Sequence record: ON711395.1
Source of the DNA: Escherichia phage brachmannus
DNA length: 51,540 nucleotides
Strand: one strand, 5' to 3'
Part shown: positions 21,751 through 51,518 of the stretch, one piece after another
How positions within the stretch are numbered: position 1 is the stretch's first letter
Layout: each line of letters starts with the position of its first letter
Position numbers and translations under genes: made by a program
Notes under the pieces: model-generated
Told to the model about the DNA's origin: nothing
The model's input: the letters and a program-made list of their open reading frames with translations, nothing else
The model's database searches: none

Positions 21751-21806
21751 CTTCAATACTCCTTAGTTGTTGTTGGCTGTAACTATACACGATCCGACAA
21801 GCTGAG

Positions 21807-21823
21807 TTTAGCAAAAAGTGCTA
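21807..21823 (-). promoter_or_regulatory. conserved motif variant + TATAGT upstream of lipoprotein gene (minus strand)
   Basis: minus strand reads TAGCACTTTTTGCTAAAC, TATAGT 21 bp after TTGCTA. Confidence 0.55.
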
Positions 21824-22193
21824 CTTGTTATTTTTTGTTTTCCAGTGTTATCGAATTTAAGACGGCGCAAATTTGGCGCAAATTTTAACCAACACAAGAG
21901 CAATAAACAACCAATAAAATAGATATATGCATATAAAATCAATAGTTTATTTATTTATGTATGTATATTTGTTTTTTCTTGTTATCTGTGTTTCTTGTGG
22001 TTTTGGTTGTTTGTGGTGATTTTTCTTTCTGAGTATCTGCATGTGCCATCATTCATGTGTATGTATATAATCCGGCGTATCTGAGAGAACAAGGGAACAA
22101 GAAAAATAACACATGTTAATCATTAACTTACGTGTCAGATTTGTTTTCTTGCCATCTGAGAACGTTTAGAAAACAGAAAAAACAAAACAACTA

Positions 22194-22221
22194 TTGACTA
22201 AATCAACCAAATGGCTACAAT
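22194..22221 (+). promoter_or_regulatory. sigma70-like promoter TTGACT-16-TACAAT upstream of recombination module
   Basis: near-consensus hexamers about 30 nt upstream of GAGGAG RBS of 22252 gene. Confidence 0.6.
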
Positions 22222-22251
22222 GCACACACAAAGCAACGAGGAGCATTAAAG

Positions 22252-23307
22252 ATGAGTGATTTTAACGCCTATACTAGCGAAGAAATGAGCAATGAGCTTT
22301 ATCATGATCCTAGCGCGTGGACGGCTGAATACGTCAGCGGTTCCAGCCTGGCGGAGATTTACAGCACTTGCCCGGCGTACTGGAAGTACAAACCTCGCCA
22401 GGAAACCAAAGCACTTGTTTTCGGTACGCAGTCGCATACCAATTTTGAAAGCAAGGAGTTATTCGAAAAAACATATCGCCGCGCACCGTCGCAGGATGAC
22501 TTTAAAGATCTGATCACAAGCCAAACGGCGTTAGCTGCAAAGCTGAAATCTTTTGGCCTGAAAGGTACGACGGGTAAGCAGTATCCAGAATTGCTGGAAA
22601 TGCTGTACAAGTGCGGTGAGGATCTCAATGTATGGTGGCTTATCGAAATGATGGCAGAATGCCAGGCCGCAGCGGACGGCGTGCAGTTAATCGACGCGAA
22701 AGATTATGATGCCTGTGTAGCGATGCGGCGCGTACTTGAGGCAATACCTGAGCATAATGCTTGCATGAATAGCCCAACCGCGCAGCGTGAAATGTCAATA
22801 TTCGGGATCATCAATGGCGTAAAAGTTAAAGTGCGCCTTGATCACGTTGACGTAAACAAGGATGTAAAGGCCACAATCATTAACGGTTACGACGAAAAAG
22901 GCCGACCGATTTATGAAGAAGTCATATATCCAGAAGCTGTGATTATAACTGACTATAAAACAACGGTTAGCGCAAATCCGGTTGACTTCCAGCGCCTGGC
23001 TTACAATCACGGCTATTATCTCAAAATGGCTTTGCAACATGATTTATTCAAAAAGGCGTATCCAGACGAGGAAAGACCAGTAATTGTGAGATTGCTTGCT
23101 CAAGAGAAGAAAGATCCTTACTTGCCGCTCGCATTCCGCATGAACATTGAGCAATTGAAGATTGGGCGTATCCAGTACATGAGCGTGATCAATAAGTTCA
23201 ATGTTTGCCAGAAGTTAGATGAATGGCCTTCGTATGCAAACGGGCAGCCAGAAATTGATCTTGATACTCCTGATTGGGTGCGCGCTCAATTCAGGCAGTA
23301 TCTATAA
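22252..23307 (+). CDS. PD-(D/E)XK recombination exonuclease (RecE/RecB-nuclease-like)
   Basis: 351 aa; motifs VRLDHVD and IITDYKTT and QRLAYNHGYY match RecB-family nuclease motifs; first gene after strong promoter; upstream of erf and ssb. Confidence 0.6.
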   Translation: MSDFNAYTSEEMSNELYHDPSAWTAEYVSGSSLAEIYSTCPAYWKYKPRQETKALVFGTQSHTNFESKELFEKTYRRAPSQDDFKDLITSQTALAAKLKSFGLKGTTGKQYPELLEMLYKCGEDLNVWWLIEMMAECQAAADGVQLIDAKDYDACVAMRRVLEAIPEHNACMNSPTAQREMSIFGIINGVKVKVRLDHVDVNKDVKATIINGYDEKGRPIYEEVIYPEAVIITDYKTTVSANPVDFQRLAYNHGYYLKMALQHDLFKKAYPDEERPVIVRLLAQEKKDPYLPLAFRMNIEQLKIGRIQYMSVINKFNVCQKLDEWPSYANGQPEIDLDTPDWVRAQFRQYL

Positions 23308-42713: not shown

Positions 42714-42742
42714 TTGACACATTAAATAGCATTATTGATAAT
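42714..42742 (+). promoter_or_regulatory. sigma70-like promoter TTGACA-17-GATAAT upstream of plus-strand early array
   Basis: consensus -35 and good -10 about 30 nt upstream of AGGAGG RBS of 42772 gene. Confidence 0.6.
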
Positions 42743-42771
42743 GCCGACACCTAACAACCAGGAGGTAGAAA

Positions 42772-43236
42772 ATGAGCGAGCAATCATTCACTGACACGCT
42801 GCGCCGTGCAGCTATTATGCTGGCTAATGGCGAGGAAGAGACGATCAAGATTCCTGACGCGTATTTGCAGGTCCACATGTTCGGTAAGAAGTCGGCAAGC
42901 AATCCGGCGGCCTACATTCGCCAGATCATGAGTCGAGTGCCAGAAGTCGCCGAGCGGGGGCGCGTATCCGTTACCCGTGGCGTTTACGGGCCGGAAGATG
43001 AAAACTTCGGTAGCACTTTCTACGAGGTGCGGATTGTTGAAGGCCGTCGCAAGGTTTACAACAAAGAGGCACTGGAAAAGGCAGTGCGCCAGGCTAAGCG
43101 CAAGGTTGCAGAGGCGATCATTGATATGTCACCAAACCTGGCAAACTATGCGCCGGAAGAGTACGAAACATTATCAAAGGCCGTCGCTGACTTTCACGCG
43201 ATGATCAAAAAAACTTTCCTGGAGGATGAGCAATGA
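42772..43236 (+). CDS. hypothetical protein (first plus-strand early gene)
   Basis: 154 aa, AGGAGG RBS, downstream of TTGACA-17-GATAAT promoter. Confidence 0.55.
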   Translation: MSEQSFTDTLRRAAIMLANGEEETIKIPDAYLQVHMFGKKSASNPAAYIRQIMSRVPEVAERGRVSVTRGVYGPEDENFGSTFYEVRIVEGRRKVYNKEALEKAVRQAKRKVAEAIIDMSPNLANYAPEEYETLSKAVADFHAMIKKTFLEDEQ

Positions 43237-43505
43237 AAAAGGCATTAATCAGCGTTTTGGCGGCAATGGCATTCCTGACCGGATGCAAAGAAGATGGCGC
43301 GCATGTTGGCAATGTGCAGATGGCTAACCCTGGCGATGACTACAGCGTAAGGGAGCTATTCACCGCTGACGGTTGCACCGTTTACCGATTCTATGACGAT
43401 CGCACTGTTTACTTCACCAACTGTAAGGGCACGACTATCTGGGAAGTGTCGAAAAGCAATGGCAAAGGCACGAAGACAGAACATATGACCGTCGAGACAA
43501 AATAG
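43233..43505 (+). CDS. small lipoprotein
   Basis: signal peptide with lipobox LTGC. Confidence 0.5.
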   Translation: MKKALISVLAAMAFLTGCKEDGAHVGNVQMANPGDDYSVRELFTADGCTVYRFYDDRTVYFTNCKGTTIWEVSKSNGKGTKTEHMTVETK

Positions 43506-43521
43506 CACTTTTTGTTAAAAC
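43503..43521 (+). promoter_or_regulatory. conserved motif + hairpin GCCAGGC-GCAAA-GCCTGGC + ATAAT
   Basis: overlaps stop TAG of lipoprotein gene. Confidence 0.6.
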
Positions 43522-43577
43522 GCCAGGCGCAAAGCCTGGCATAATAGCCTCATCGAAACGAGATTGAGGAAACAAAA

Positions 43578-43763
43578 ATGGCACGTCGCATCACCAAAGA
43601 CCTTAAAGTCCTGAACAAAGAAAACGTAGTTAAAATCCTGGTTATCTGGGGCTACAACGAAGAAACAGCAAAGCAGAAGGTAGAGGCAGGTTATGACCTG
43701 GCTGTAAAAGCAATGCCAAACGATGACGCCAAAGGCATTGCAAACTATGTAGCGTTCTTTTAA
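43578..43763 (+). CDS. hypothetical protein
   Basis: 61 aa with RBS, after motif-hairpin cassette. Confidence 0.45.
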   Translation: MARRITKDLKVLNKENVVKILVIWGYNEETAKQKVEAGYDLAVKAMPNDDAKGIANYVAFF

Positions 43764-43778
43764 TTAGCAGGTGAATAG

Positions 43779-43964
43779 ATGAAAACGAAATTAGTCCATA
43801 AATCAGAAATCAAGATCGGCGATACTGTGATTCACAACGGCGAGCTTAGAACGGTTGGCAAGGAGTCAATAAGCCACGATGAATTTATGGGGATCTTGTT
43901 GTTCGGTGACTCTTATCGTCTTGGTTACAAGATGGTTGAGCTTGTGGAAGATGTCAAATTCTAA
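43779..43964 (+). CDS. hypothetical protein
   Basis: 61 aa. Confidence 0.45.
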   Translation: MKTKLVHKSEIKIGDTVIHNGELRTVGKESISHDEFMGILLFGDSYRLGYKMVELVEDVKF

Positions 43965-43965
43965 A

Positions 43966-43984
43966 TAGCACTTTTTGTTAAAAC
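43966..43984 (+). promoter_or_regulatory. conserved motif + CATAAT
   Basis: follows stop TAA; CATAAT 22 bp after TTGTTA. Confidence 0.55.
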
Positions 43985-44062
43985 TCTAAAACGATAACCA
44001 GGCATAATAAATCACATAGGGCGGCACGGCGTCGCCCACAAAACCAATCAGGAGAAAGCACC

Positions 44063-44323
44063 ATGTTAAAACTTGCTGACATTAAATTCCAGATCACCTT
44101 CGAATCTCGCGGCATTGGTCATTACATTTTTACCGATGAAAAAACATGCCATAAGGTTGATATGAATAGCGACAAACTAAGCCCATCAGACATGGAGATT
44201 GAACACTTCATTGATGCGCACAATACGCAGTACAACGCACTTAAAGACTATGGCTATGCAATGCCAGGATATACCAGCTTCCACTACAAGCCATATAAAG
44301 GCCAGGTGTTGCCAGTGCGCTAA
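44063..44323 (+). CDS. hypothetical protein
   Basis: 86 aa. Confidence 0.45.
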   Translation: MLKLADIKFQITFESRGIGHYIFTDEKTCHKVDMNSDKLSPSDMEIEHFIDAHNTQYNALKDYGYAMPGYTSFHYKPYKGQVLPVR

Positions 44324-44344
44324 CCGGAACGCGCAGAGATTCCG

Positions 44345-44956
44345 ATGGTCGAGATGAAAACATGCGACTACAAAAAGCTGTGGTGCTTAAGTGTGGACAA
44401 TATCAAGTATCCGATCACGTTCTACACGGTTGGTAATTCAACGATTCGATTCACATCGCGCGACAATGGCGTTTATAGCGATGGTACGAAATCAGAGTTG
44501 AAAGTTGATTTCTTTGTCAACGGTCACAATAGATACAATCCGCACAACGAAAAAGATAAAGTGTATTACGTGGAAGACATTACAAAACACTTGTTTGGAG
44601 AAACTCCATTCGGCGGCGGTAAGACGTCAATTCAAAAAATCATTGGCGATGAGATCCACAAAGCGGCTGCCGAAATGAAAGCGCCTGGAGGCTGGCGCAT
44701 TGACAAGAGCGCATTTGCAAATCAAGAAATCGTAACGCAGGGCGCAATTGAAGATATGCCAGTTGCAGCCACTCTAAAAGGAGTCCGGCTTGATGACGGC
44801 ACCTGGTATGAAGTAACGGCTACACCAAAGACGATCGAGATTCATGATGACGTTGTTATCCTTCTGCTTCACTACGGCGGCTATAAAAACCGGACGATTG
44901 CAGGTGAGACCAGCATTAAGCGCGGAACGATGGTTAAGTGGAAGGTGAAGATTTGA
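44345..44956 (+). CDS. hypothetical protein
   Basis: 203 aa. Confidence 0.5.
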   Translation: MVEMKTCDYKKLWCLSVDNIKYPITFYTVGNSTIRFTSRDNGVYSDGTKSELKVDFFVNGHNRYNPHNEKDKVYYVEDITKHLFGETPFGGGKTSIQKIIGDEIHKAAAEMKAPGGWRIDKSAFANQEIVTQGAIEDMPVAATLKGVRLDDGTWYEVTATPKTIEIHDDVVILLLHYGGYKNRTIAGETSIKRGTMVKWKVKI

Positions 44957-45032
44957 GTTTGCTCACTGCGGCGCACGTCGCCGCATGGATCGGATTGTTT
45001 TCCTACCTGTTTAGCTTTTATTTAGGTGAGAG

Positions 45033-45176
45033 ATGGCTACCTGGATTTTGCTGATTCTTATGATTGATGGCGGCGTTGACCATATCGAAATGAATAGCCA
45101 GCAATCTTGCATTGAGGCACGAGAGCAGATCAAGAACAACAACAGGTTTTATGCGTACACTCACACGCTATGTATT
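45033..45176 (+). CDS. small hydrophobic protein (47 aa, not in ORF track)
   Basis: manual translation MATWILLILMIDGGVDHIEM...; GGTGAGAG RBS-like upstream. Confidence 0.3.
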
Positions 45177-45180
45177 AAGA

Positions 45181-45199
45181 AATAGCACTTTTTGTTAAA
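45181..45199 (+). promoter_or_regulatory. conserved motif + hairpin with TATAAT in loop
   Basis: GGCCAGGTATAATGGCC. Confidence 0.6.
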
Positions 45200-45254
45200 A
45201 CTCAAATGTGGGGCCAGGTATAATGGCCTCACTTTCAACGAAGGAGATAAAACG

Positions 45255-45473
45255 ATGTACATTAAAAAGAAGATGAAATGCGTTTCCGTTAACTACGCTT
45301 GCTCTGGCATGTTCAAGCCTGGCGAAATCTATACGGCGCAAAAACTGAAATCATCAACCGGATCTTTTTACGTGAGCAATAGTAAGGGGCATCGCATGTT
45401 CCTGAACGGCGGCGAAGGCACTAAGGTTATGGCACACGCTATGGTAATGGCTGAATTTGAGGAGGTGAAATAA
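45255..45473 (+). CDS. hypothetical protein (paralog of next gene)
   Basis: ATG 45255 with AAGGAG RBS; shares LNGGEGT...AEFEEV pattern with 45473-45706. Confidence 0.5.
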   Translation: MYIKKKMKCVSVNYACSGMFKPGEIYTAQKLKSSTGSFYVSNSKGHRMFLNGGEGTKVMAHAMVMAEFEEVK

Positions 45474-45706
45474 TGATCATTGAAAACAACTTTCTTTGCG
45501 TTAAGAGCAATAGACCATTCTTCACGCCTGGCAAGGTGTACCAGGGCAAGAAGGACACAAGAGATGGTCACTCTTATCATGTTCACTGCAACAACGGATA
45601 CAAGTTTTACCTTAACGGCGAGAATGGAACTGAGATCGTTGCGTTTGAAAACGTAGTTGCAGAGTTCGAGCAGGTTACAGACGCGGAATTTGAGGAAGTG
45701 CAATAA
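45473..45706 (+). CDS. hypothetical protein (paralog of previous gene)
   Basis: 77 aa; tandem duplicate. Confidence 0.5.
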   Translation: MIIENNFLCVKSNRPFFTPGKVYQGKKDTRDGHSYHVHCNNGYKFYLNGENGTEIVAFENVVAEFEQVTDAEFEEVQ

Positions 45707-45888
45707 TGGATGATTTTACTCGGCTTGTTCTCGGCTGGATTGTGTTTCTTTTTGCGTGGCTTATCCACTGTGCGAGGCATAAATTCAGACTGAGCTATGA
45801 TAATTCATTCGTTATGACCTGCTTCAGTATTCCAGGATGGATCATTTTGCTTGTGGCTACTGCTGAATACATCCATAAAACATTTTAA
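45706..45888 (+). CDS. small membrane protein
   Basis: 60 aa with two hydrophobic segments. Confidence 0.4.
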   Translation: MDDFTRLVLGWIVFLFAWLIHCARHKFRLSYDNSFVMTCFSIPGWIILLVATAEYIHKTF

Positions 45889-45898
45889 GGATTAATAT

Positions 45899-46441
45899 AT
45901 GAAAAAATACACTTTCGAACTATGGGGCAAGAAATACGAATTAATGACCAGCAAGCCTATTGTTATCGTTGATCTGGATGGCACGCTATCTGACGGATCG
46001 CATCGTTTGCACTTGCTGCCAACCGAAAACTTGCACCTTACGGAATCGTGGAGCGAATTTAACAGGGCAGCCGCCGGAGATTCACCGATTAAGAGCACGA
46101 TTGCTGTTATCAATGGTTTGTGGGTATCTGGCTTTGCCGTCGTTATTCTTACCGGACGCAGTGACGAGGTTCGCTATGAAACCTGCAAATGGTTGAATGA
46201 GAACGGCGTGAAGTTTGACGAAATCATCATGCGCCGCCAGGAGGACAACCGAAAGGATACGGTTATTAAAGAAGAAGCCTTGCGCGCTATTGGCCTGGAC
46301 AACATTGTTTGCGCCTTTGACGATTCTCCGAACGTGGTTAAGCACTTCCGCAGCTTGGGGATAACAACCTATCAGGTCACGGAATACGACAAGCCTCACG
46401 CTCACCTGCAATCTCACGGCGTGGAGGAGTTGCAGAAATGA
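45899..46441 (+). CDS. HAD-superfamily phosphatase (PNK 3-prime-phosphatase-like)
   Basis: motif I VIVDLDGTLSD; small HAD fold size. Confidence 0.55.
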   Translation: MKKYTFELWGKKYELMTSKPIVIVDLDGTLSDGSHRLHLLPTENLHLTESWSEFNRAAAGDSPIKSTIAVINGLWVSGFAVVILTGRSDEVRYETCKWLNENGVKFDEIIMRRQEDNRKDTVIKEEALRAIGLDNIVCAFDDSPNVVKHFRSLGITTYQVTEYDKPHAHLQSHGVEELQK

Positions 46442-46647
46442 TCCTGAATGTAGCATATGCTAACCCTCGCGGCTGCAATATATACGGCTTTAAGGTTGGC
46501 GCGACGGTCAACGCCAGGATAAACGAAAAAGGCGTATTAGTTGTCAAGTCACCTAAAACTGGCATTGATATGCGCATCAAGGAGAACGGCGGAAGATTGT
46601 TTATCAGGTCAATGTCTGGTCAAACGCTCGCAACTTTCACCAAATAG
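46438..46647 (+). CDS. hypothetical protein
   Basis: 69 aa, stop TAG within motif variant. Confidence 0.45.
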   Translation: MILNVAYANPRGCNIYGFKVGATVNARINEKGVLVVKSPKTGIDMRIKENGGRLFIRSMSGQTLATFTK

Positions 46648-46663
46648 CACGAATTGCAAAAAC
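46645..46663 (+). promoter_or_regulatory. conserved motif variant TAGCACGAATTGCAAAAAC
   Basis: overlaps stop TAG of 46438 gene. Confidence 0.5.
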
Positions 46664-46718
46664 AGATCATCGGGCTTGCTGTATGGTAAGCACATCAACA
46701 ACAAACGAGGATTAAATC

Positions 46719-46982
46719 ATGGCTAACAAGATCGAATTTTTTAAAGCGGTAGACATTATTGATGGTGCGCCTAGCTTCTTTGCGATCCATTCTATTGACG
46801 GCAAGGATATTGGGTACAACGTTATCAGTCGAGATGGAATATCAAAACTTAGTGACCTGGTAGGCCATATTGTGTCAATCGGGAAATGCGCATGGCCCGA
46901 TTCGCCACGAGAGCCGCTCCGCAGCGACATGATTAATCCTGAATTGCTTTACACGCTGGTAGTAGAGGGAGAAAATAAATGA
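46719..46982 (+). CDS. hypothetical protein
   Basis: 87 aa. Confidence 0.45.
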   Translation: MANKIEFFKAVDIIDGAPSFFAIHSIDGKDIGYNVISRDGISKLSDLVGHIVSIGKCAWPDSPREPLRSDMINPELLYTLVVEGENK

Positions 46983-47164
46983 TTTGGTTACTTGCTTTTT
47001 TGGTTGTTTTTCTTTACATTTCAGGCTTGTTTACGTTCCGCGCGTTGGTGAAATATTCTGACGCGACAGACAAAGACGATAAAATCGTTCTCGCTTTCTG
47101 GTTTGTTTGGGTGTGGTTAGCAATTTACGAGAACATCAGAGACAAACAGAAATTTGAGTGGTGA
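46979..47164 (+). CDS. small membrane protein
   Basis: 61 aa hydrophobic. Confidence 0.4.
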   Translation: MIWLLAFLVVFLYISGLFTFRALVKYSDATDKDDKIVLAFWFVWVWLAIYENIRDKQKFEW

Positions 47165-47220
47165 TTCTTGCTATGGCGCATTCATGCAGTGCGCCATGTT
47201 GAGAAAACATAAAGGGGGAA

Positions 47221-47364
47221 ATGATGCGTAACTTTGAAAAAATCATTACCAAAAAGAAGCGTCGCGGGTACGATGAGCATGTGGAGTTTGTGAACAAGCA
47301 GCGCAAGAAGCGCCATAGACGCGAAATGCTGCATAATATCAACTCACGCTATGGAGGAAACTAA
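47221..47364 (+). CDS. small highly basic protein (47 aa, not in ORF track)
   Basis: AAGGGGGAA RBS then ATGATG; translation MMRNFEKIITKKKRRGYDEH...; stop abuts next start. Confidence 0.4.
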   Translation: MMRNFEKIITKKKRRGYDEHVEFVNKQRKKRHRREMLHNINSRYGGN

Positions 47365-47556
47365 ATGCAATTGCCACCATTTAACGAAAAAAGCGAAGAG
47401 ATTGCCAAAACTGCATGTCACCTTCGAGAGCTTGCCGACATGATAGATCGCGGTCAGGTTATGATTGTCAATATGGCGATTAAAAGCGAGAATAGAAATT
47501 TCAAGGTTTTAAGCGAGACAACAGAAATTACTGTGTTGAAAGCAAGGGGAGAATAA
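47365..47556 (+). CDS. hypothetical protein
   Basis: 63 aa. Confidence 0.45.
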   Translation: MQLPPFNEKSEEIAKTACHLRELADMIDRGQVMIVNMAIKSENRNFKVLSETTEITVLKARGE

Positions 47557-47558
47557 TC

Positions 47559-48149
47559 ATGAAACGAGACATTATTATCCTTAATGGGCCGCCTGGCTGT
47601 GGAAAGGACACTATTGCAGCTTACCTAACGGGCCATCGTTACCCAGCGGTTAAGGCGTCATTCAAACAGCCGATGTTCGATATTGCGTTTTCCATGCTGG
47701 GCGTGTACCTATACGATGAATTTATGGACCTGTACAACGACCGAGAACAAAAAGAAAAGCCTCAAGTTATTTTGGGCGGCAAGTCACCTCGACAATTCAT
47801 GATCTGGATTAGCGAGGATGTAATGAAGCCAGTTTTTGGAGATCACTATTTCGGGCGTCGAATGGTTGAAGAGATTCACGAGATGTACCGAGATTTGGCG
47901 GTTGTGATCAGTGATGGCGGATTCCCCGAAGAAATCAAGCCGCTGGTTAAGGCAGGGCATGAAGTGCATATTTGCCGATTGCATCGCGACGGCTTCACGT
48001 TTGCTGGCGATTCGAGAGACTATATTGACCTGAGCGGTTATCACTATCGAATCCATCACTATGACTTCCACTTGCAGGACGGCAAGCCGGAACTGGCTGT
48101 AAACGAGATCGTCAATGCTGTCAAATGGAAGCACACAAAGATTAAATAG
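47559..48149 (+). CDS. P-loop nucleotide kinase (dNMP kinase-like)
   Basis: Walker A NGPPGCGKDT close to dNMP kinase G-x-GKDT signature. Confidence 0.5.
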   Translation: MKRDIIILNGPPGCGKDTIAAYLTGHRYPAVKASFKQPMFDIAFSMLGVYLYDEFMDLYNDREQKEKPQVILGGKSPRQFMIWISEDVMKPVFGDHYFGRRMVEEIHEMYRDLAVVISDGGFPEEIKPLVKAGHEVHICRLHRDGFTFAGDSRDYIDLSGYHYRIHHYDFHLQDGKPELAVNEIVNAVKWKHTKIK

Positions 48150-48165
48150 CACGAATTGCTAAACG
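48147..48165 (+). promoter_or_regulatory. conserved motif variant TAGCACGAATTGCTAAACG + TATAAT at 22 bp
   Basis: overlaps stop TAG of kinase gene. Confidence 0.55.
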
Positions 48166-48219
48166 CGGGGCGCAATGCCTCGCTATAATGCAAACACCAA
48201 TCAACGAGAGGAAATCACA

Positions 48220-48600
48220 ATGGTTAACATCAGAAAAATCCGCGTCGGCACTAAATTCTTAGTTACTTACGCAATTCCAGATAGCGGAATGAAGAAGGGC
48301 CAGATTGTTAAGGTTGATAGCAAAAGATTTGGAATCCCTGGTATCAATGGCTATCTAATCAATAAAGATCTTGGATTCGGCGGATTCGCTATCCGTTCGC
48401 TTGAGGGTATTGTTGCCACCCTTAAACGAATCACAAATCATCGAGGCTGCCCAATCAAGACTATTAAAGCGCCAACCAATCACGGCAAACTGGATAATCG
48501 TCGAATCCGCCGCCTGGCGCGTAACGCGTTAAAATTCCGTGGCGTAGGCGATGATTTCTACTATGGATACAAGAGGATTGCGCGCAATGCTGGGAAATAA
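48220..48600 (+). CDS. hypothetical protein
   Basis: ATG 48220 with GAGAGGAAA leader (track start 48175 alternative). Confidence 0.45.
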   Translation: MVNIRKIRVGTKFLVTYAIPDSGMKKGQIVKVDSKRFGIPGINGYLINKDLGFGGFAIRSLEGIVATLKRITNHRGCPIKTIKAPTNHGKLDNRRIRRLARNALKFRGVGDDFYYGYKRIARNAGK

Positions 48601-48699
48601 CAATAACGCAACGAATCCTAAGCCACCTTTTGATTTTCATTCCGCAATGATTGCGGTATTATCAATGCTACTTTTTCTTTATAGCATGAGGGCGCTACT

Positions 48700-48948
48700 A
48701 TGGTTTTTAACGCATTGAAACGACTGTTTAAGCCGGAATACCGGATCGTATTTTGCCGCGACTGTTCTACTTATCATGTGCAGCGACGCAGCTTAGGCGG
48801 CAATTGGCACTATGTTACAGATGACTTTTTCGGCATCATTGCCACTGAATTTAAGTGTTATAGCGATGCTTATATGTACGTCAAGAAGCGCCACCGCTTA
48901 CGCAAGTGTCGTTTTTCCGCACTGATTCACTTTAATGATTGTTACTGA
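48700..48948 (+). CDS. hypothetical Cys-containing protein
   Basis: 82 aa; CRDC...C pattern. Confidence 0.4.
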   Translation: MVFNALKRLFKPEYRIVFCRDCSTYHVQRRSLGGNWHYVTDDFFGIIATEFKCYSDAYMYVKKRHRLRKCRFSALIHFNDCY

Positions 48949-48955
48949 GGTGAAA

Positions 48956-49138
48956 ATGAAAACTGGTGTTATTATTCTTTTTCTGATCCTTTTAGGCAGC
49001 CATTTAACCATTAACTATGAGGGCATTATGGCCTTTTGGGGCAACTTGATGATGTTTGCTGCTGGTTCAATTGCTGGCTACTCTGACGGGAAAAATGATG
49101 GTGTGCGCAAGATGCTGATGGGGCTTAAACAAAAATAA
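48956..49138 (+). CDS. small membrane protein
   Basis: ATG 48956 with GAGGTG RBS; two hydrophobic helices. Confidence 0.4.
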   Translation: MKTGVIILFLILLGSHLTINYEGIMAFWGNLMMFAAGSIAGYSDGKNDGVRKMLMGLKQK

Positions 49139-49149
49139 GGGGATATGAA

Positions 49150-49440
49150 ATGGCAAACAAAACTTACCGCAAACTACTGGTTAACGCTTTTGAAAACATC
49201 GCGCAGTGTAACAAGTGGAACGACTCTAAACACTCGCCAATCACAATGAAGCGCGCCGGATTCAAAAATACTCGTTCATGGGCGCGAGCTTTCGCAGCTT
49301 GCTATATGCCGGATGGCGGACTAGGGGTGATGAACGATTTTTTGATCAACATGATAGAGGAAGCTGCGCGAGAGGATCGACCGCTGACACAGCGAGATTT
49401 TGACGACTTCGCGCGCGATGAGCTTTACTATCTGAGCTAA
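49150..49440 (+). CDS. hypothetical protein
   Basis: 96 aa; stop followed by TAG of motif copy. Confidence 0.45.
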   Translation: MANKTYRKLLVNAFENIAQCNKWNDSKHSPITMKRAGFKNTRSWARAFAACYMPDGGLGVMNDFLINMIEEAAREDRPLTQRDFDDFARDELYYLS

Positions 49441-49459
49441 TAGCACTTTTTGTTAAAAC
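49441..49459 (+). promoter_or_regulatory. conserved motif + hairpin AAGGGCA...TGCCCTT
   Basis: after TAATAG. Confidence 0.55.
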
Positions 49460-49515
49460 TTCCGCAAGGGCATTTGGTAAAGTGCCCTTATTGAAGCGAA
49501 ACAGAGGAAAGCGCA

Positions 49516-49728
49516 ATGAAAATTAAAATCACCAAAATCGACACCATCAACGGAGACGGATCAATCACTCTTGAGCAATGCGGTTTGGTTGTTGGTGATG
49601 TGCTGGAAGTTGACGGTCATTTCAGCTACGGATCTTATTGTGTTATTGCGCCGCGTAACAGCGAGTTTATCAAGGCTGGCGACAATATTAGTGTTAACCA
49701 TGACGAATGCGAGGTAGTAGAAGAATGA
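49516..49728 (+). CDS. hypothetical protein
   Basis: 70 aa. Confidence 0.45.
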   Translation: MKIKITKIDTINGDGSITLEQCGLVVGDVLEVDGHFSYGSYCVIAPRNSEFIKAGDNISVNHDECEVVEE

Positions 49729-49988
49729 TCACGATTAACCTGTCAGAGCAGCAAGCGCGCATTATGTTGTCGGCCTTCGGTTGGCGAGACAATGACGGTT
49801 TACAGGCCACAGTTAAAATTTATGAGCCAGTGGCGCGTGAAGTTTTCAGCCAGCTAGAACACGCATTTGATCCTGCTGGGACTGAGCAAGCGGAAACTGC
49901 CGCATGGTTCGGAGAGAACGGATACAGAGATCAGCAAGTCGAAAACTGGAAGCGCATAAACGAGACTATGGAGGAATCAGGTTTATGA
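49725..49988 (+). CDS. hypothetical protein
   Basis: ATGA overlap with previous gene. Confidence 0.4.
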   Translation: MITINLSEQQARIMLSAFGWRDNDGLQATVKIYEPVAREVFSQLEHAFDPAGTEQAETAAWFGENGYRDQQVENWKRINETMEESGL

Positions 49989-50299
49989 TTTACATTCACT
50001 ACTACCAAATCGGAACTAACGAGAACAAAAAAGAGCATCGTTTCATCCACGATGATTTGGACAAGGCAAAGGCCCAGCAACAGGTTTTAGGCGGCGTCAT
50101 TCAGGCTTTTGAGCCTGTAGAGGATATTGAGTACCGCGAGCATTTAAAAGATGTTGTTATTGATGAGATCTCTTGCTTGATTGATGATATGACAAATCAC
50201 GGCCCTGGTTCCCCGTGGGAAGACGCAGGATCTGTAACGTGGGACAAGGCCAAAGTTAAGACGCTAAACAACTTTCGAGAGATTCTCGACGGTTTTTAA
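49985..50299 (+). CDS. hypothetical protein
   Basis: ATGA overlap with previous gene. Confidence 0.4.
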   Translation: MIYIHYYQIGTNENKKEHRFIHDDLDKAKAQQQVLGGVIQAFEPVEDIEYREHLKDVVIDEISCLIDDMTNHGPGSPWEDAGSVTWDKAKVKTLNNFREILDGF

Positions 50300-50497
50300 T
50301 TAAAAACGCATAGCCGTTAGAGCGCCTCAATCGCATTCTAACGAGCTATTTTTCTGGTAAGGTGATTTAATGGATGAGTACAAACAACCTTCGCAGTGGT
50401 GCAAAGAGAAGCAAGAAGAGGCACTGGAGCGCGGAGATGTGGAAGAAGCTATGAACTATTTCAAACTTGCGGAAGAATGGAAGGGGAGAGGATACTG

Positions 50498-50728
50498 ATG
50501 TTCGGCATGAATGAGGCGCAATTCAACGCAGCTAAACGCCAGGCTAAAAAGTGCGGCGAGGCGATGAAAGCGGATGTGGAAAAGCGCGGGAAGTATGTTG
50601 ATGAAGTAATGAAGGGCATCATTGCAGAACACTACCAGCCAATCGCGCCAATGTTGACGATCACTCAATTCATTTGGCTATGTGGTTACTTGCGTGGACG
50701 TTGGGGGAACGCTTTCGACAGGGAATGA
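50498..50728 (+). CDS. hypothetical protein
   Basis: ATG 50498 after GGGGAGAGG RBS; alternative small ORF 50370-50498 upstream. Confidence 0.35.
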   Translation: MFGMNEAQFNAAKRQAKKCGEAMKADVEKRGKYVDEVMKGIIAEHYQPIAPMLTITQFIWLCGYLRGRWGNAFDRE

Positions 50729-50890
50729 TTGACAACTCTTTCCTGATTGGTTAGCATGGCGTCGTTTACATAAGAGCGGCTTAGTCCGAACGCGTGACGC
50801 GATAGTCACACAACAACGGCGATATGCAGGAGGTTTTTGCAATGAAAAATAATCCGTAAGACGTATCGCCTTTTTTAATGGAGATCCAAA

Positions 50891-51124
50891 ATGATTAAAT
50901 ACAAATTAACCGTTTCTTTCCGTGATACCGTTATCCATCCTTTCTACAATAGCTTTGTTAACAGCTTTACAGTAGAAGCGACAGAGGATCAGCTAGACGG
51001 TGACGAAACTTGCATTTCTATTGGAAATGTTGCTTACCCGATTCACAACATTACCAGCATTAAGCGTGAGGTTGTCGCTGATGAATTACAAAGTGAAGAT
51101 GACGATCCGGCGAATGGGGCGTAA
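50891..51124 (+). CDS. hypothetical protein
   Basis: 77 aa. Confidence 0.45.
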   Translation: MIKYKLTVSFRDTVIHPFYNSFVNSFTVEATEDQLDGDETCISIGNVAYPIHNITSIKREVVADELQSEDDDPANGA

Positions 51125-51266
51125 TTGCCAATCATGCAAACAGGAATATGAATGCGTAGTTGATGCTCTTGATGAACTTGAAGCAGTAGCAAAAGCAAAA
51201 GAGCAATCGGGCGCTAATCCTGAAACACATCAATTTTCAATTAACCTTGTGAGGGCTTTACAATGA
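51099..51266 (+). CDS. small Cys-containing protein (start uncertain)
   Basis: CQSC...C pattern; overlaps previous gene end. Confidence 0.3.
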   Translation: MTIRRMGRNCQSCKQEYECVVDALDELEAVAKAKEQSGANPETHQFSINLVRALQ

Positions 51267-51487
51267 TCGCATTATCTTTCTGCATTGGTTTTATCATGGC
51301 TATCATTATCTTTTCCGTTGTCATGCGCTTTGCTTATAAGTTCGTGATCAATAAAGGCTGGTACGCTTCTGCAATCTGGAGCGAAAAACAAAAGAAATGG
51401 CTTGTACGTGGTCAATACCTGATGATCGGCAGCAAGATCCTAAATTCCATTCGAGCCAAAGATGGAAAAGTAAAATATACAGCTTAA
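51263..51487 (+). CDS. small membrane protein
   Basis: 74 aa, N-terminal TMD; followed by intrinsic terminator. Confidence 0.45.
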   Translation: MIALSFCIGFIMAIIIFSVVMRFAYKFVINKGWYASAIWSEKQKKWLVRGQYLMIGSKILNSIRAKDGKVKYTA

Positions 51488-51491
51488 AAAT

Positions 51492-51518
51492 TACCCGCCG
51501 CACGGCGGGTTTTTTATT
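51492..51518 (+). terminator. intrinsic terminator at end of plus-strand early array
   Basis: CCCGCCG-CAC-GGCGGG then T6. Confidence 0.7.

What the first reader, a model, noticed from the sequence alone, without database searches (positions are those of the whole stretch)
45899..48149. HAD phosphatase and P-loop kinase encoded separately in the early array
The HAD phosphatase (DxDGT motif VDLDGTL) and a kinase with a dNMP-kinase-like Walker A (GPPGCGKDT) together resemble the two halves of polynucleotide kinase-phosphatase, which T4 uses for tRNA repair, or a nucleotide-salvage pair. No ligase was recognised nearby. Either role would relate to countering host defence or boosting nucleotide pools.
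Basis: partly seen in the sequence, partly recalled or inferred. Interest (0 to 1): 0.45.

Follow-up and report, generated by a model that had tools for sequence, protein, structure and literature searches.

The report
Linked phosphatase–kinase gene pair in T1-like phage
Two real, conserved genes of a T1-like coliphage, a T4-Pnkp-type phosphatase and a kinase of the phage dNMP-kinase superfamily, form a gene pair that is adjacent or even fused in related phages; the pair is already annotated in GenBank, its biochemistry is untested, and it most likely serves nucleotide salvage rather than tRNA repair.

Summary
ORF 45899-46441 (180 aa, VDLDGTL) is a HAD phosphatase of the T4 Pnkp phosphatase family. 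ORF 47559-48149 (196 aa, GPPGCGKDT) is a P-loop kinase. The window is a Warwickvirus (Drexlerviridae) genome, about 96% identical to phages vB_EcoS-95 and NorthRox, where these genes are already labelled 'polynucleotide kinase' and 'dNMP kinase/ATP-binding protein'.

The kinase is not a Pnkp-type kinase. Its best fold match is T4 gp1 dNMP kinase, it is homologous to T5 Dnk, and it shares only the P-loop with T4 Pnkp. It keeps about half of gp1's dNMP-site residues and has a different LID.

The two genes are linked. In 71 of 80 related viral loci the HAD lies upstream on the same strand, and in 19 of them the genes overlap. Three rare protein clusters fuse HAD to kinase.

No ligase is present, so T4-style tRNA repair is unlikely. 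My best reading (about 0.45) is a nucleotide-salvage cassette of a 3'-phosphatase plus a dNMP kinase. The main rival (about 0.3) is a non-orthologous, split PNKP that heals nucleic-acid ends. This is ordinary for T1-like phages and only moderately interesting.

The parts
45899..46441 (+). HAD-superfamily phosphatase of the Pnkp phosphatase family, 180 aa. Motif I is D25-x-D27-G-T29, motif II is T85 (LTGR87), motif III is K119 (R118-K-D120) and motif IV is D141-D142. It has an N-terminal beta-hairpin and a conserved but poorly modelled insertion at residues 40-59.
47559..48149 (+). P-loop kinase of the phage dNMP-kinase (T4 gp1 / T5 Dnk) superfamily, 196 aa. Motifs are the P-loop G10-PPGCGK16-D17-T18, S34-F-K36-x-P38, D-R62-E, R78-xx-M81, D119-GGF-P-x-E125, and a LID with R140-LH-R143 ... 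G-D151-S-R153.
46438..47556 (+). A block of five small ORFs (69, 87, 61, 47 and 63 aa) that separates the two genes in this lineage. It is variable cargo and not a conserved part of the pair.
   Evidence: ORF list. Only PHROGs of unknown function match. In other phages the same interval is 0 nt, about 100-170 nt, or holds an HNH endonuclease.
42714..51510 (+). Probable single + strand transcription unit (the 'early array') that holds both genes. It starts at promoter-like sites at 42714-42742 and 42791-42818 and ends at a hairpin-plus-T-run at 51493-51510. This is a weak inference.
   Evidence: Consensus scan. The two best promoter-like matches (11/12 and 10/12) lie at its start. Between them and 51493 the scan lists only one weak + strand terminator-like site (45720-45738, 3 G-C pairs). 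The total number of sites is no higher than in shuffled sequence, so this is suggestive only.

Best explanation
The two genes are the separated members of a conserved phage cassette, ordered HAD phosphatase then kinase, and co-transcribed early. The first product is a Pnkp-type HAD acyl-phosphatase that should hydrolyse 3'-phosphomonoesters of (deoxy)nucleotides or of nucleic-acid ends. The second is a divergent member of the T4 gp1 / T5 Dnk dNMP-kinase superfamily that should transfer the ATP gamma-phosphate to a nucleoside 5'-monophosphate. I propose that together they feed breakdown products of host nucleic acid into the phage DNA-precursor pool. The phosphatase would remove 3'-phosphates that block further exonucleolytic digestion or use of the product. 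The kinase would convert the released 5'-dNMPs to dNDPs, for a phage that encodes no other nucleotide-metabolism enzyme and no DNA polymerase. What is shown: family membership of both proteins, conservation of the catalytic motifs, and genetic linkage including fusion. What is inferred: the substrates, the direction of flux and the physiological role.

For: Residues that bind the dNMP in T4 gp1 are listed in Table 2 of PMC10653934. Mapped through alignment A4, R68 corresponds to R62, R132 to R78, M135 to M81, D175 to D119 and E181 to E125, and all five are conserved or invariant in the family.

Where the kinase occurs without the HAD, it lies among replication and nucleotide-metabolism genes. 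In ST32 it is followed by dUTPase, and in SPLA5a it lies near thymidylate synthase. Stand-alone HAD_PNKP genes in other phages sit next to ThyX (PB1), ThyA (KASIA) and nrdB (Phi1).

The genome has no ligase.

Linkage is strong. In 71 of 80 loci the HAD is upstream on the same strand, and in 19 the genes overlap. The pair also occurs as a two-gene cassette in unrelated genome positions. Fusion proteins exist. [quoted passage not shown]
Against: No 3'-phosphate-producing nuclease or 3'-phosphorylated nucleotide pool is known or shown for T1-like infection, so the phosphatase step is the weak link. A phosphatase fused to a nucleotide kinase has no obvious metabolic logic unless the two act on different phosphates. 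The kinase departs from proven dNMP kinases at functional positions: gp1 R177 is G121, the LID residues D204/H206/E209 are not conserved, and Pfam DNMK does not match. The HAD is clearly closer to polynucleotide phosphatases than to the T5 5'-nucleotidase Dmp (30% probability; E 0.0024). The residue mapping rests on a MAFFT sequence alignment at 23-24% identity, not on a structural superposition.
Confidence: 0.45

Rival explanations
1. Split, non-orthologous polynucleotide kinase-phosphatase. In this reading the dNMP-kinase-fold protein has been recruited as a 5'-OH polynucleotide kinase and works with the Pnkp-type 3'-phosphatase. Together they convert 3'-P/5'-OH breaks in DNA or RNA into 3'-OH/5'-P ends, which a host ligase such as LigA then seals in DNA.
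For: The HAD's nearest relatives in both sequence and structure are the phosphatase domains of end-healing enzymes, T4 Pnkp and Pnkp1 of the Pnkp1-Rnl-Hen1 RNA repair complex. Strict pairing with a P-loop kinase, including three diverged fusion clusters that share a homologous linker, reproduces the PNKP architecture. From my own knowledge, mammalian PNKP also has the order phosphatase then kinase. One cleavage event creates both lesions, which explains why the two activities would be coupled. The kinase has lost gp1's R177 and its LID signature, so a change of substrate is possible. In ST32 the kinase gene overlaps a DNA ligase gene.
Confidence: 0.3
2. Two functionally independent genes. The conserved order would then reflect only common descent of related siphophage genomes, and the rare fusions would be tolerated accidents between neighbouring co-transcribed genes.
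For: Most sampled loci belong to related phages of about 41-53 kb. The kinase occurs without the HAD in about 9 of 80 loci and in many other phage families. The HAD family is found in more phage records than the kinase family, 3,106 against 1,460. Fusions are rare, with three clusters on five contigs.
Against: The pair keeps its order and strand while its genomic position changes. It lies in the early left arm in T1 and Warwickvirus, after the exonuclease and before the holin in Webervirus, and beside the portal gene in a Yersinia phage. The DNA between the two genes turns over, yet the genes stay together. The fusion is maintained between proteins that are only 37% identical and that share a homologous linker of 60-110 aa, so it is not a simple loss of a stop codon.
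Confidence: 0.12
3. Anti-defence enzymes acting on small signalling or toxic nucleotides. Examples would be removing or adding phosphates on 3'-phosphorylated or cyclic-nucleotide-derived immune signals, or restoring pools depleted by nucleotide-depleting defences.
For: The genes lie in an early array of small accessory genes typical of host-takeover and anti-defence regions. The kinase fold family accepts varied phosphorylated small molecules, such as phosphomevalonate.
Against: No similarity to any PADLOC defence-related model beyond P-loop noise. No literature link was found. The pair is also located in replication or lysis-proximal modules in other genera.
Confidence: 0.08

Closest known systems
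T4 polynucleotide kinase-phosphatase (PseT/Pnkp; PDB 1ltq, 5uj0) and bacterial Pnkp1 (4xrp)
   Different: Here the phosphatase is a separate 180-aa protein. It carries an extra conserved insertion of about 17 residues after motif I and an N-terminal hairpin. The partner kinase is not homologous to the Pnkp kinase beyond the P-loop. In the rare fusions the order is phosphatase then kinase, the reverse of T4. There is no Rnl1/Rnl2-type ligase partner.
T4 gp1 and T5 Dnk deoxynucleoside monophosphate kinases (Pfam DNMK PF21448; PDB 1dek/1del)
   Same: Best structural match. The G-x-G-K-D-T P-loop is shared. The alignment is colinear, with conserved equivalents of gp1 R68, R132, M135, D175 and E181. 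The protein falls in PHROG 139.
   Different: It is about 45-55 residues shorter. The Pfam DNMK model does not match. The D-x-R motif is D-G-G. The LID is R-L-H-R-D-G...G-D-S-R instead of D-x-H-x-T-E-x-G. It is usually preceded by a Pnkp-type HAD gene, which gp1 and Dnk are not.
T5 Dmp (5'-deoxyribonucleotidase) plus Dnk
   Same: T5 also encodes one nucleotide phosphatase with a DLDGT..HR start and one dNMP kinase. Both are distant relatives of the window's two proteins.
   Different: Similarity to Dmp is marginal: hhalign 30% over 49 columns. The T5 genes lie 21 kb apart and are expressed in different temporal classes (annotation, and my own knowledge). The window's HAD is far closer to Pnkp.
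Mammalian PNKP
   Same: The domain order is HAD phosphatase followed by P-loop kinase, as in the fused relatives P0259, P0387 and P0268.

Membership tests
HAD superfamily, Pnkp phosphatase family (Pfam PF25109 HAD_PNKP) | Profile match above the curated threshold | tested here: met
   75.7 bits against a gathering score of 27.6, E 5.4e-21, covering 138 of 143 profile positions.
HAD superfamily, Pnkp phosphatase family (Pfam PF25109 HAD_PNKP) | Four HAD catalytic motifs: DxDxT nucleophile/acid, Ser/Thr, Lys and the acidic pair | tested here: met
   D25, D27, T29, T85, K119, D141 and D142 are invariant or nearly invariant in 26-29 homologues. They align to T4 Pnkp DVDGT, SGR, RKD and DD.
HAD superfamily, Pnkp phosphatase family (Pfam PF25109 HAD_PNKP) | Fold closest to Pnkp phosphatase domains | tested here: met
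HAD superfamily, Pnkp phosphatase family (Pfam PF25109 HAD_PNKP) | 3'-phosphomonoesterase activity on nucleotides or nucleic-acid ends | not testable with these tools
   Needs an enzyme assay.
Bifunctional T4-type Pnkp end-healing system | Pnkp-type 5'-kinase domain, with homology beyond the P-loop and a catalytic Asp after strand beta2 | tested here: not met
Bifunctional T4-type Pnkp end-healing system | A cognate RNA or DNA ligase encoded by the same genome | tested here: not met
   No ligase domain in the ten ORFs of at least 200 aa that were scanned. None in the annotation of the 96%-identical NorthRox.
dNMP kinase family (T4 gp1 / T5 Dnk; Pfam PF21448 DNMK) | Match to the Pfam DNMK profile | tested here: not met
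   No DNMK hit at E up to 0.1 for the window protein. T4 gp1 scores 3e-107 and T5 Dnk 4e-11 against the same model.
dNMP kinase family (T4 gp1 / T5 Dnk; Pfam PF21448 DNMK) | Homology and fold shared with characterised members | tested here: met
dNMP kinase family (T4 gp1 / T5 Dnk; Pfam PF21448 DNMK) | Residues of the gp1 dNMP site (K37, R68, R132, R177, M135, D175, E181) and LID 'locking' residues (D204, H206, T208, E209) | tested here: inconclusive
   R62, R78, M81, D119 and E125 are conserved equivalents. R177 is G121. K37 aligns to F40, with an invariant K36 nearby. The LID signature is replaced by RLHRDG..GDSR (residue roles from PMC10653934). This is a sequence alignment, not a superposition.
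dNMP kinase family (T4 gp1 / T5 Dnk; Pfam PF21448 DNMK) | ATP:dNMP phosphotransferase activity | not testable with these tools
   Needs an enzyme assay or complementation.
T5 Dmp-type 5'-deoxyribonucleotidase | Sequence homology to Dmp | tested here: inconclusive
   hhalign gives 30% probability over 49 N-terminal columns. BLASTP finds only the DLDGT..HR stretch, E 0.009. The HAD HMM scores E 0.0024 in a small local database. Dmp itself matches no Pfam family.

The most novel reading that the evidence does not exclude
The cassette is a second, independently assembled polynucleotide kinase-phosphatase. In it a dNMP-kinase-fold protein replaces the canonical Pnkp kinase, either split from or fused to a Pnkp-type 3'-phosphatase. 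It would heal 3'-P/5'-OH breaks in phage DNA or RNA and rely on a host ligase. That would be a ligase-less repair strategy, widespread in T1-like and other siphophages, against nucleases or damage that leave such ends.
Probability: 0.25. Interest if true: 0.6.

Novelty: new member of a known kind. Interest (0 to 1): 0.3.

Why it matters
T1-like phages are common laboratory, industrial and therapeutic phages with few assigned enzymatic functions, and this pair is among their most conserved non-structural genes. GenBank labels the 180-aa HAD 'polynucleotide kinase' or '3'-phosphatase, 5'-polynucleotide kinase' although it has no kinase domain, so the annotation is misleading. The linkage and fusion data give a concrete, cheap biochemical question: is the partner a dNMP kinase or a polynucleotide kinase? 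If it is a dNMP kinase, T1-like phages join T4, T5 and T7 in carrying their own dNMP kinase. If it is a polynucleotide kinase, this is a new PNKP architecture and a potentially useful reagent enzyme.

Tried and rejected
1. Direct sequence and profile searches of the kinase against PDB sequences returned only generic P-loop matches, so they were uninformative. Fold comparison was needed.
2. NCBIfam and PADLOC gave nothing above noise for either protein.
3. I tested whether the 174-aa ORF upstream of the ligase-kinase pair in phage ST32 is a HAD, which would have made a phosphatase-ligase-kinase operon. It is not (HMM scan).
4. I tested whether PB1 ORF57, annotated 'polynucleotide kinase/phosphorylase' with an N-terminal HAD, carries this kinase at its C-terminus. 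It does not.
5. I compared the C-terminal extension of the 236-237-aa HAD of the closest relatives with the window's downstream 69-aa ORF. There is no similarity.
6. Literature searches for experimental work on the Drexlerviridae genes, on SECphi27, or for a defence link found only annotation-level mentions.
7. The original T4 Dnk structure paper could not be retrieved. Residue roles were taken second-hand from PMC10653934.
8. I rejected T4-style tRNA anticodon-nuclease repair as the leading reading, because there is no ligase and the kinase is not Pnkp-like.

Full report
**What is there**

The window is essentially a complete genome of a T1-like siphophage. The 3.1 kb around the finding is 96% identical to Escherichia phages vB_EcoS-95 and NorthRox (Drexlerviridae, Tempevirinae, Warwickvirus). 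It is 93-95% identical to tonnikala, SECphi27 and FritzSarasin/Bas04.

Each has a Shine-Dalgarno-like sequence upstream.

They sit in a tightly packed + strand array. It runs from two promoter-like sites near 42.7-42.8 kb to a strong hairpin-plus-T-run at 51493-51510. The scan lists only one weak + strand terminator-like site in between (45720-45738). The total number of sites is no higher than in shuffled sequence, so co-transcription is an inference.

Five small ORFs separate the two genes.

**The phosphatase**

- ORF 45899-46441 scores 75.7 bits on Pfam HAD_PNKP, against a cut-off of 27.6. It scores 3e-67 on PHROG 415.
- phmmer against PDB sequences finds Pnkp1 (8e-7) and T4 Pnkp (4.5e-5). 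The alignment pairs TGRS with SGRE, DNRKDTVIKEE with DTRKDDVVKEE, and FDDSPNVV with IDDRTQVV.
- hhalign against T4 Pnkp gives 96% probability.
- All four HAD motifs are invariant across homologues.

The protein has no kinase domain, so the GenBank labels 'polynucleotide kinase' and '3'-phosphatase, 5'-polynucleotide kinase' overstate what it is. Similarity to the T5 5'-nucleotidase Dmp is marginal and limited to the start of the protein.

**The kinase**

- No Pfam or NCBIfam family reaches its threshold. PDB sequence searches give only P-loop matches.
- PHROG 139 ('dNMP kinase') matches at 7e-51.
- In Foldseek, 1dek has the best TM-score (0.70). The other significant hits are mostly NMP kinases.
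- Profile comparison gives 95.5% to T5 Dnk over 65 columns and 80.8% to T4 gp1 over 74 columns. Against T4 Pnkp only the 24-residue P-loop aligns.

I recalled the T4 gp1 sequence from memory and verified it as 100% identical to GenBank X03016. I also recalled the T4 Pnkp sequence from memory and did not check it against a record; its phosphatase part agrees with the chain residues printed.

The residue roles in T4 gp1 are tabulated in PMC10653934. Mapping them through a MAFFT alignment gives this picture:

| T4 gp1 residue | Window family | Status |
|---|---|---|
| R68 | R62 | conserved or invariant |
| R132 | R78 | conserved or invariant |
| M135 | M81 | conserved or invariant |
| D175 | D119 | conserved or invariant |
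| E181 | E125 | conserved or invariant |
| R177 | G121 | lost |
| K37 | F40 (invariant K36 nearby) | not aligned |
| LID D-x-H-x-T-E | R-L-H-R-D-G...G-D-S-R | replaced |

The protein is therefore a distinct clade of the dNMP-kinase superfamily. It is not a Pnkp kinase, and its substrate is not proven.

**The two genes are linked**

I fetched 80 IMG/VR loci with the kinase profile and searched them locally for the HAD.

| Arrangement | Loci |
|---|---|
| HAD within 10 kb, always upstream on the same strand | 71 of 80 |
| – genes overlap | 19 |
| – gap of 65-174 nt | 14 |
| – gap of about 470 nt | 3 |
| – gap of 0.7-2.15 kb, as in this window | 35 |
| No HAD found | 9 of 80 |

- The 470-nt gap corresponds to the HNH endonuclease that sits between the genes in T1 itself.
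- Two of the nine loci without a HAD have too little upstream DNA to judge.

The pair keeps its order while moving around the genome. It lies in the early arm near the terminase in T1 and Warwickvirus. It lies between the repair exonuclease and the holin in Klebsiella Webervirus, with a 4-nt overlap. It lies beside the portal gene in Yersinia phage vB_YenM_574.

A whole-library profile search found two proteins with the kinase at the C-terminus and Pfam HAD_PNKP at the N-terminus. A follow-up search found a third. These three clusters are 403, 413 and 461 aa long and 37-74% identical to each other. They share a homologous linker and occur on five contigs from several samples, including a 60.7-kb phage contig.

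These points argue for functional coupling, but the evidence has limits:
- The fusions are rare.
- The kinase also occurs alone. In Chaseviridae phage ST32 it lies between a DNA ligase and dUTPase. It occurs alone in phiEco32, and in a Vequintavirinae phage it lies near thymidylate synthase.
- Most sampled loci come from related phages.

**Function**

No ligase is encoded in the window or in its annotated relatives. These phages also have no DNA polymerase and no other nucleotide-metabolism gene. T4-style tRNA repair, which uses Pnkp plus Rnl1, is therefore unlikely.

Two readings remain.

*Reading A, nucleotide salvage (my estimate about 0.45).* The kinase makes dNDPs from the 5'-dNMPs released from host DNA. 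The Pnkp-type phosphatase clears 3'-phosphates from mono- or oligonucleotides.
- In favour: the kinase's fold neighbours, the retained dNMP-site residues, and the nucleotide-metabolism neighbours of both families in other phages. The one published comment reads these genes the same way (PMC13164509).
- Weakness: there is no known source of 3'-phosphorylated products, and no clear reason to fuse the two activities.

*Reading B, a split non-orthologous PNKP (about 0.3).* This explains the coupling naturally, because one cleavage event leaves both a 3'-P and a 5'-OH. It also fits the HAD's closest relatives.
- Weakness: the kinase looks like a phosphate-acceptor NMP kinase. It lacks the acidic residue that hydroxyl-acceptor P-loop kinases carry after strand beta2. 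Sealing would have to be done by a host ligase.

Two minor alternatives are independent functions (about 0.12) and action on signalling nucleotides (about 0.08).

**Novelty and verdict**

Both proteins are new members of known families. The pair is a standard and already annotated feature of Drexlerviridae.

This analysis adds three things:
- The 'polynucleotide kinase' label is wrong for the HAD.
- The partner kinase belongs to the gp1/Dnk superfamily and not the Pnkp family, with a distinctive DGGF / RLHRDG..GDSR signature.
- Synteny and rare fusions tie the two genes together.

None of it is experimentally tested. Interest is modest (0.3). It would rise if the kinase proved to be a polynucleotide kinase.

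Noticed in passing
window 45192-45473 and 45473-45706 (+): Two adjacent small ORFs immediately upstream of the HAD region are paralogues: 35% identity over 71 aa, E 6e-13 in a local BLASTP. This is a tandem duplication of a small protein of unknown function ending in an acidic ...AEFE(E/Q)V tail.
   Followed up: partly
window 44063-44323 and 44345-44956 (+): These two ORFs (86 and 203 aa) occupy the position of a single CDS of about 296 aa in NorthRox and FritzSarasin. The gene may be split here by a stop codon or frameshift, or the relatives' CDS may be over-extended. The 203-aa part fully covers phrog_7116.
   Followed up: no
window 46438-46647 (+), and proteins P0121/P0122/P0134: In the closest relatives the HAD protein is 236-264 aa long, with a C-terminal extension of about 57 aa (sometimes preceded by a Cys-rich insert). 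In the window the HAD stops at 180 aa, and a separate 69-aa ORF starts at an ATGA overlap. The extension and the 69-aa ORF show no sequence similarity. The 3' end of the HAD gene appears to be a hot spot for swapping small modules.
   Followed up: partly
alignment A1 (kinase homologues from other T1-like phages; not the window protein): Ten of 40 kinase homologues end in an acidic tail ...D(D/E)IPW. From my own knowledge this resembles the C-terminal tip of E. coli SSB (DDDIPF), which recruits replication and repair proteins. It hints that in those phages the kinase is tethered to DNA-processing machinery. The window's kinase ends ...KWKHTKIK and lacks the tail.
   Followed up: no
window 46016-46075 (HAD residues 40-59): The insertion after HAD motif I is rich in invariant residues (P41, W51, F54, N55) but is modelled with pLDDT below 50. 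It is longer than the corresponding loop of T4 Pnkp and weakly resembles the same region of T5 Dmp. It could be a substrate flap or a partner-binding loop.
   Followed up: partly
GenBank records found (e.g. MG065667.1 'Campylobacter phage A127', 47 kb): About 20-39 records named Campylobacter phage, with host C. jejuni, carry this T1-like region with a kinase about 83% identical at the protein level. That is unexpected for a coliphage lineage and suggests mislabelled or contaminant records.
   Followed up: no
L093 (phage T5, AY543070) 21766-23245: In T5 the dNMP kinase gene dnk lies directly next to two ORFs annotated as homologues of T4 pseT.2 and pseT.3, which are the neighbours of the T4 Pnkp gene. 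This is a second hint of an old association between dNMP-kinase and Pnkp-region genes.
   Followed up: no
window 51493-51510 (both strands): A perfect 7-bp G+C-rich hairpin flanked by T-runs on both strands, that is a bidirectional terminator-like site. It closes the + strand early array just before the position where the terminase small-subunit gene lies in relatives.
   Followed up: no
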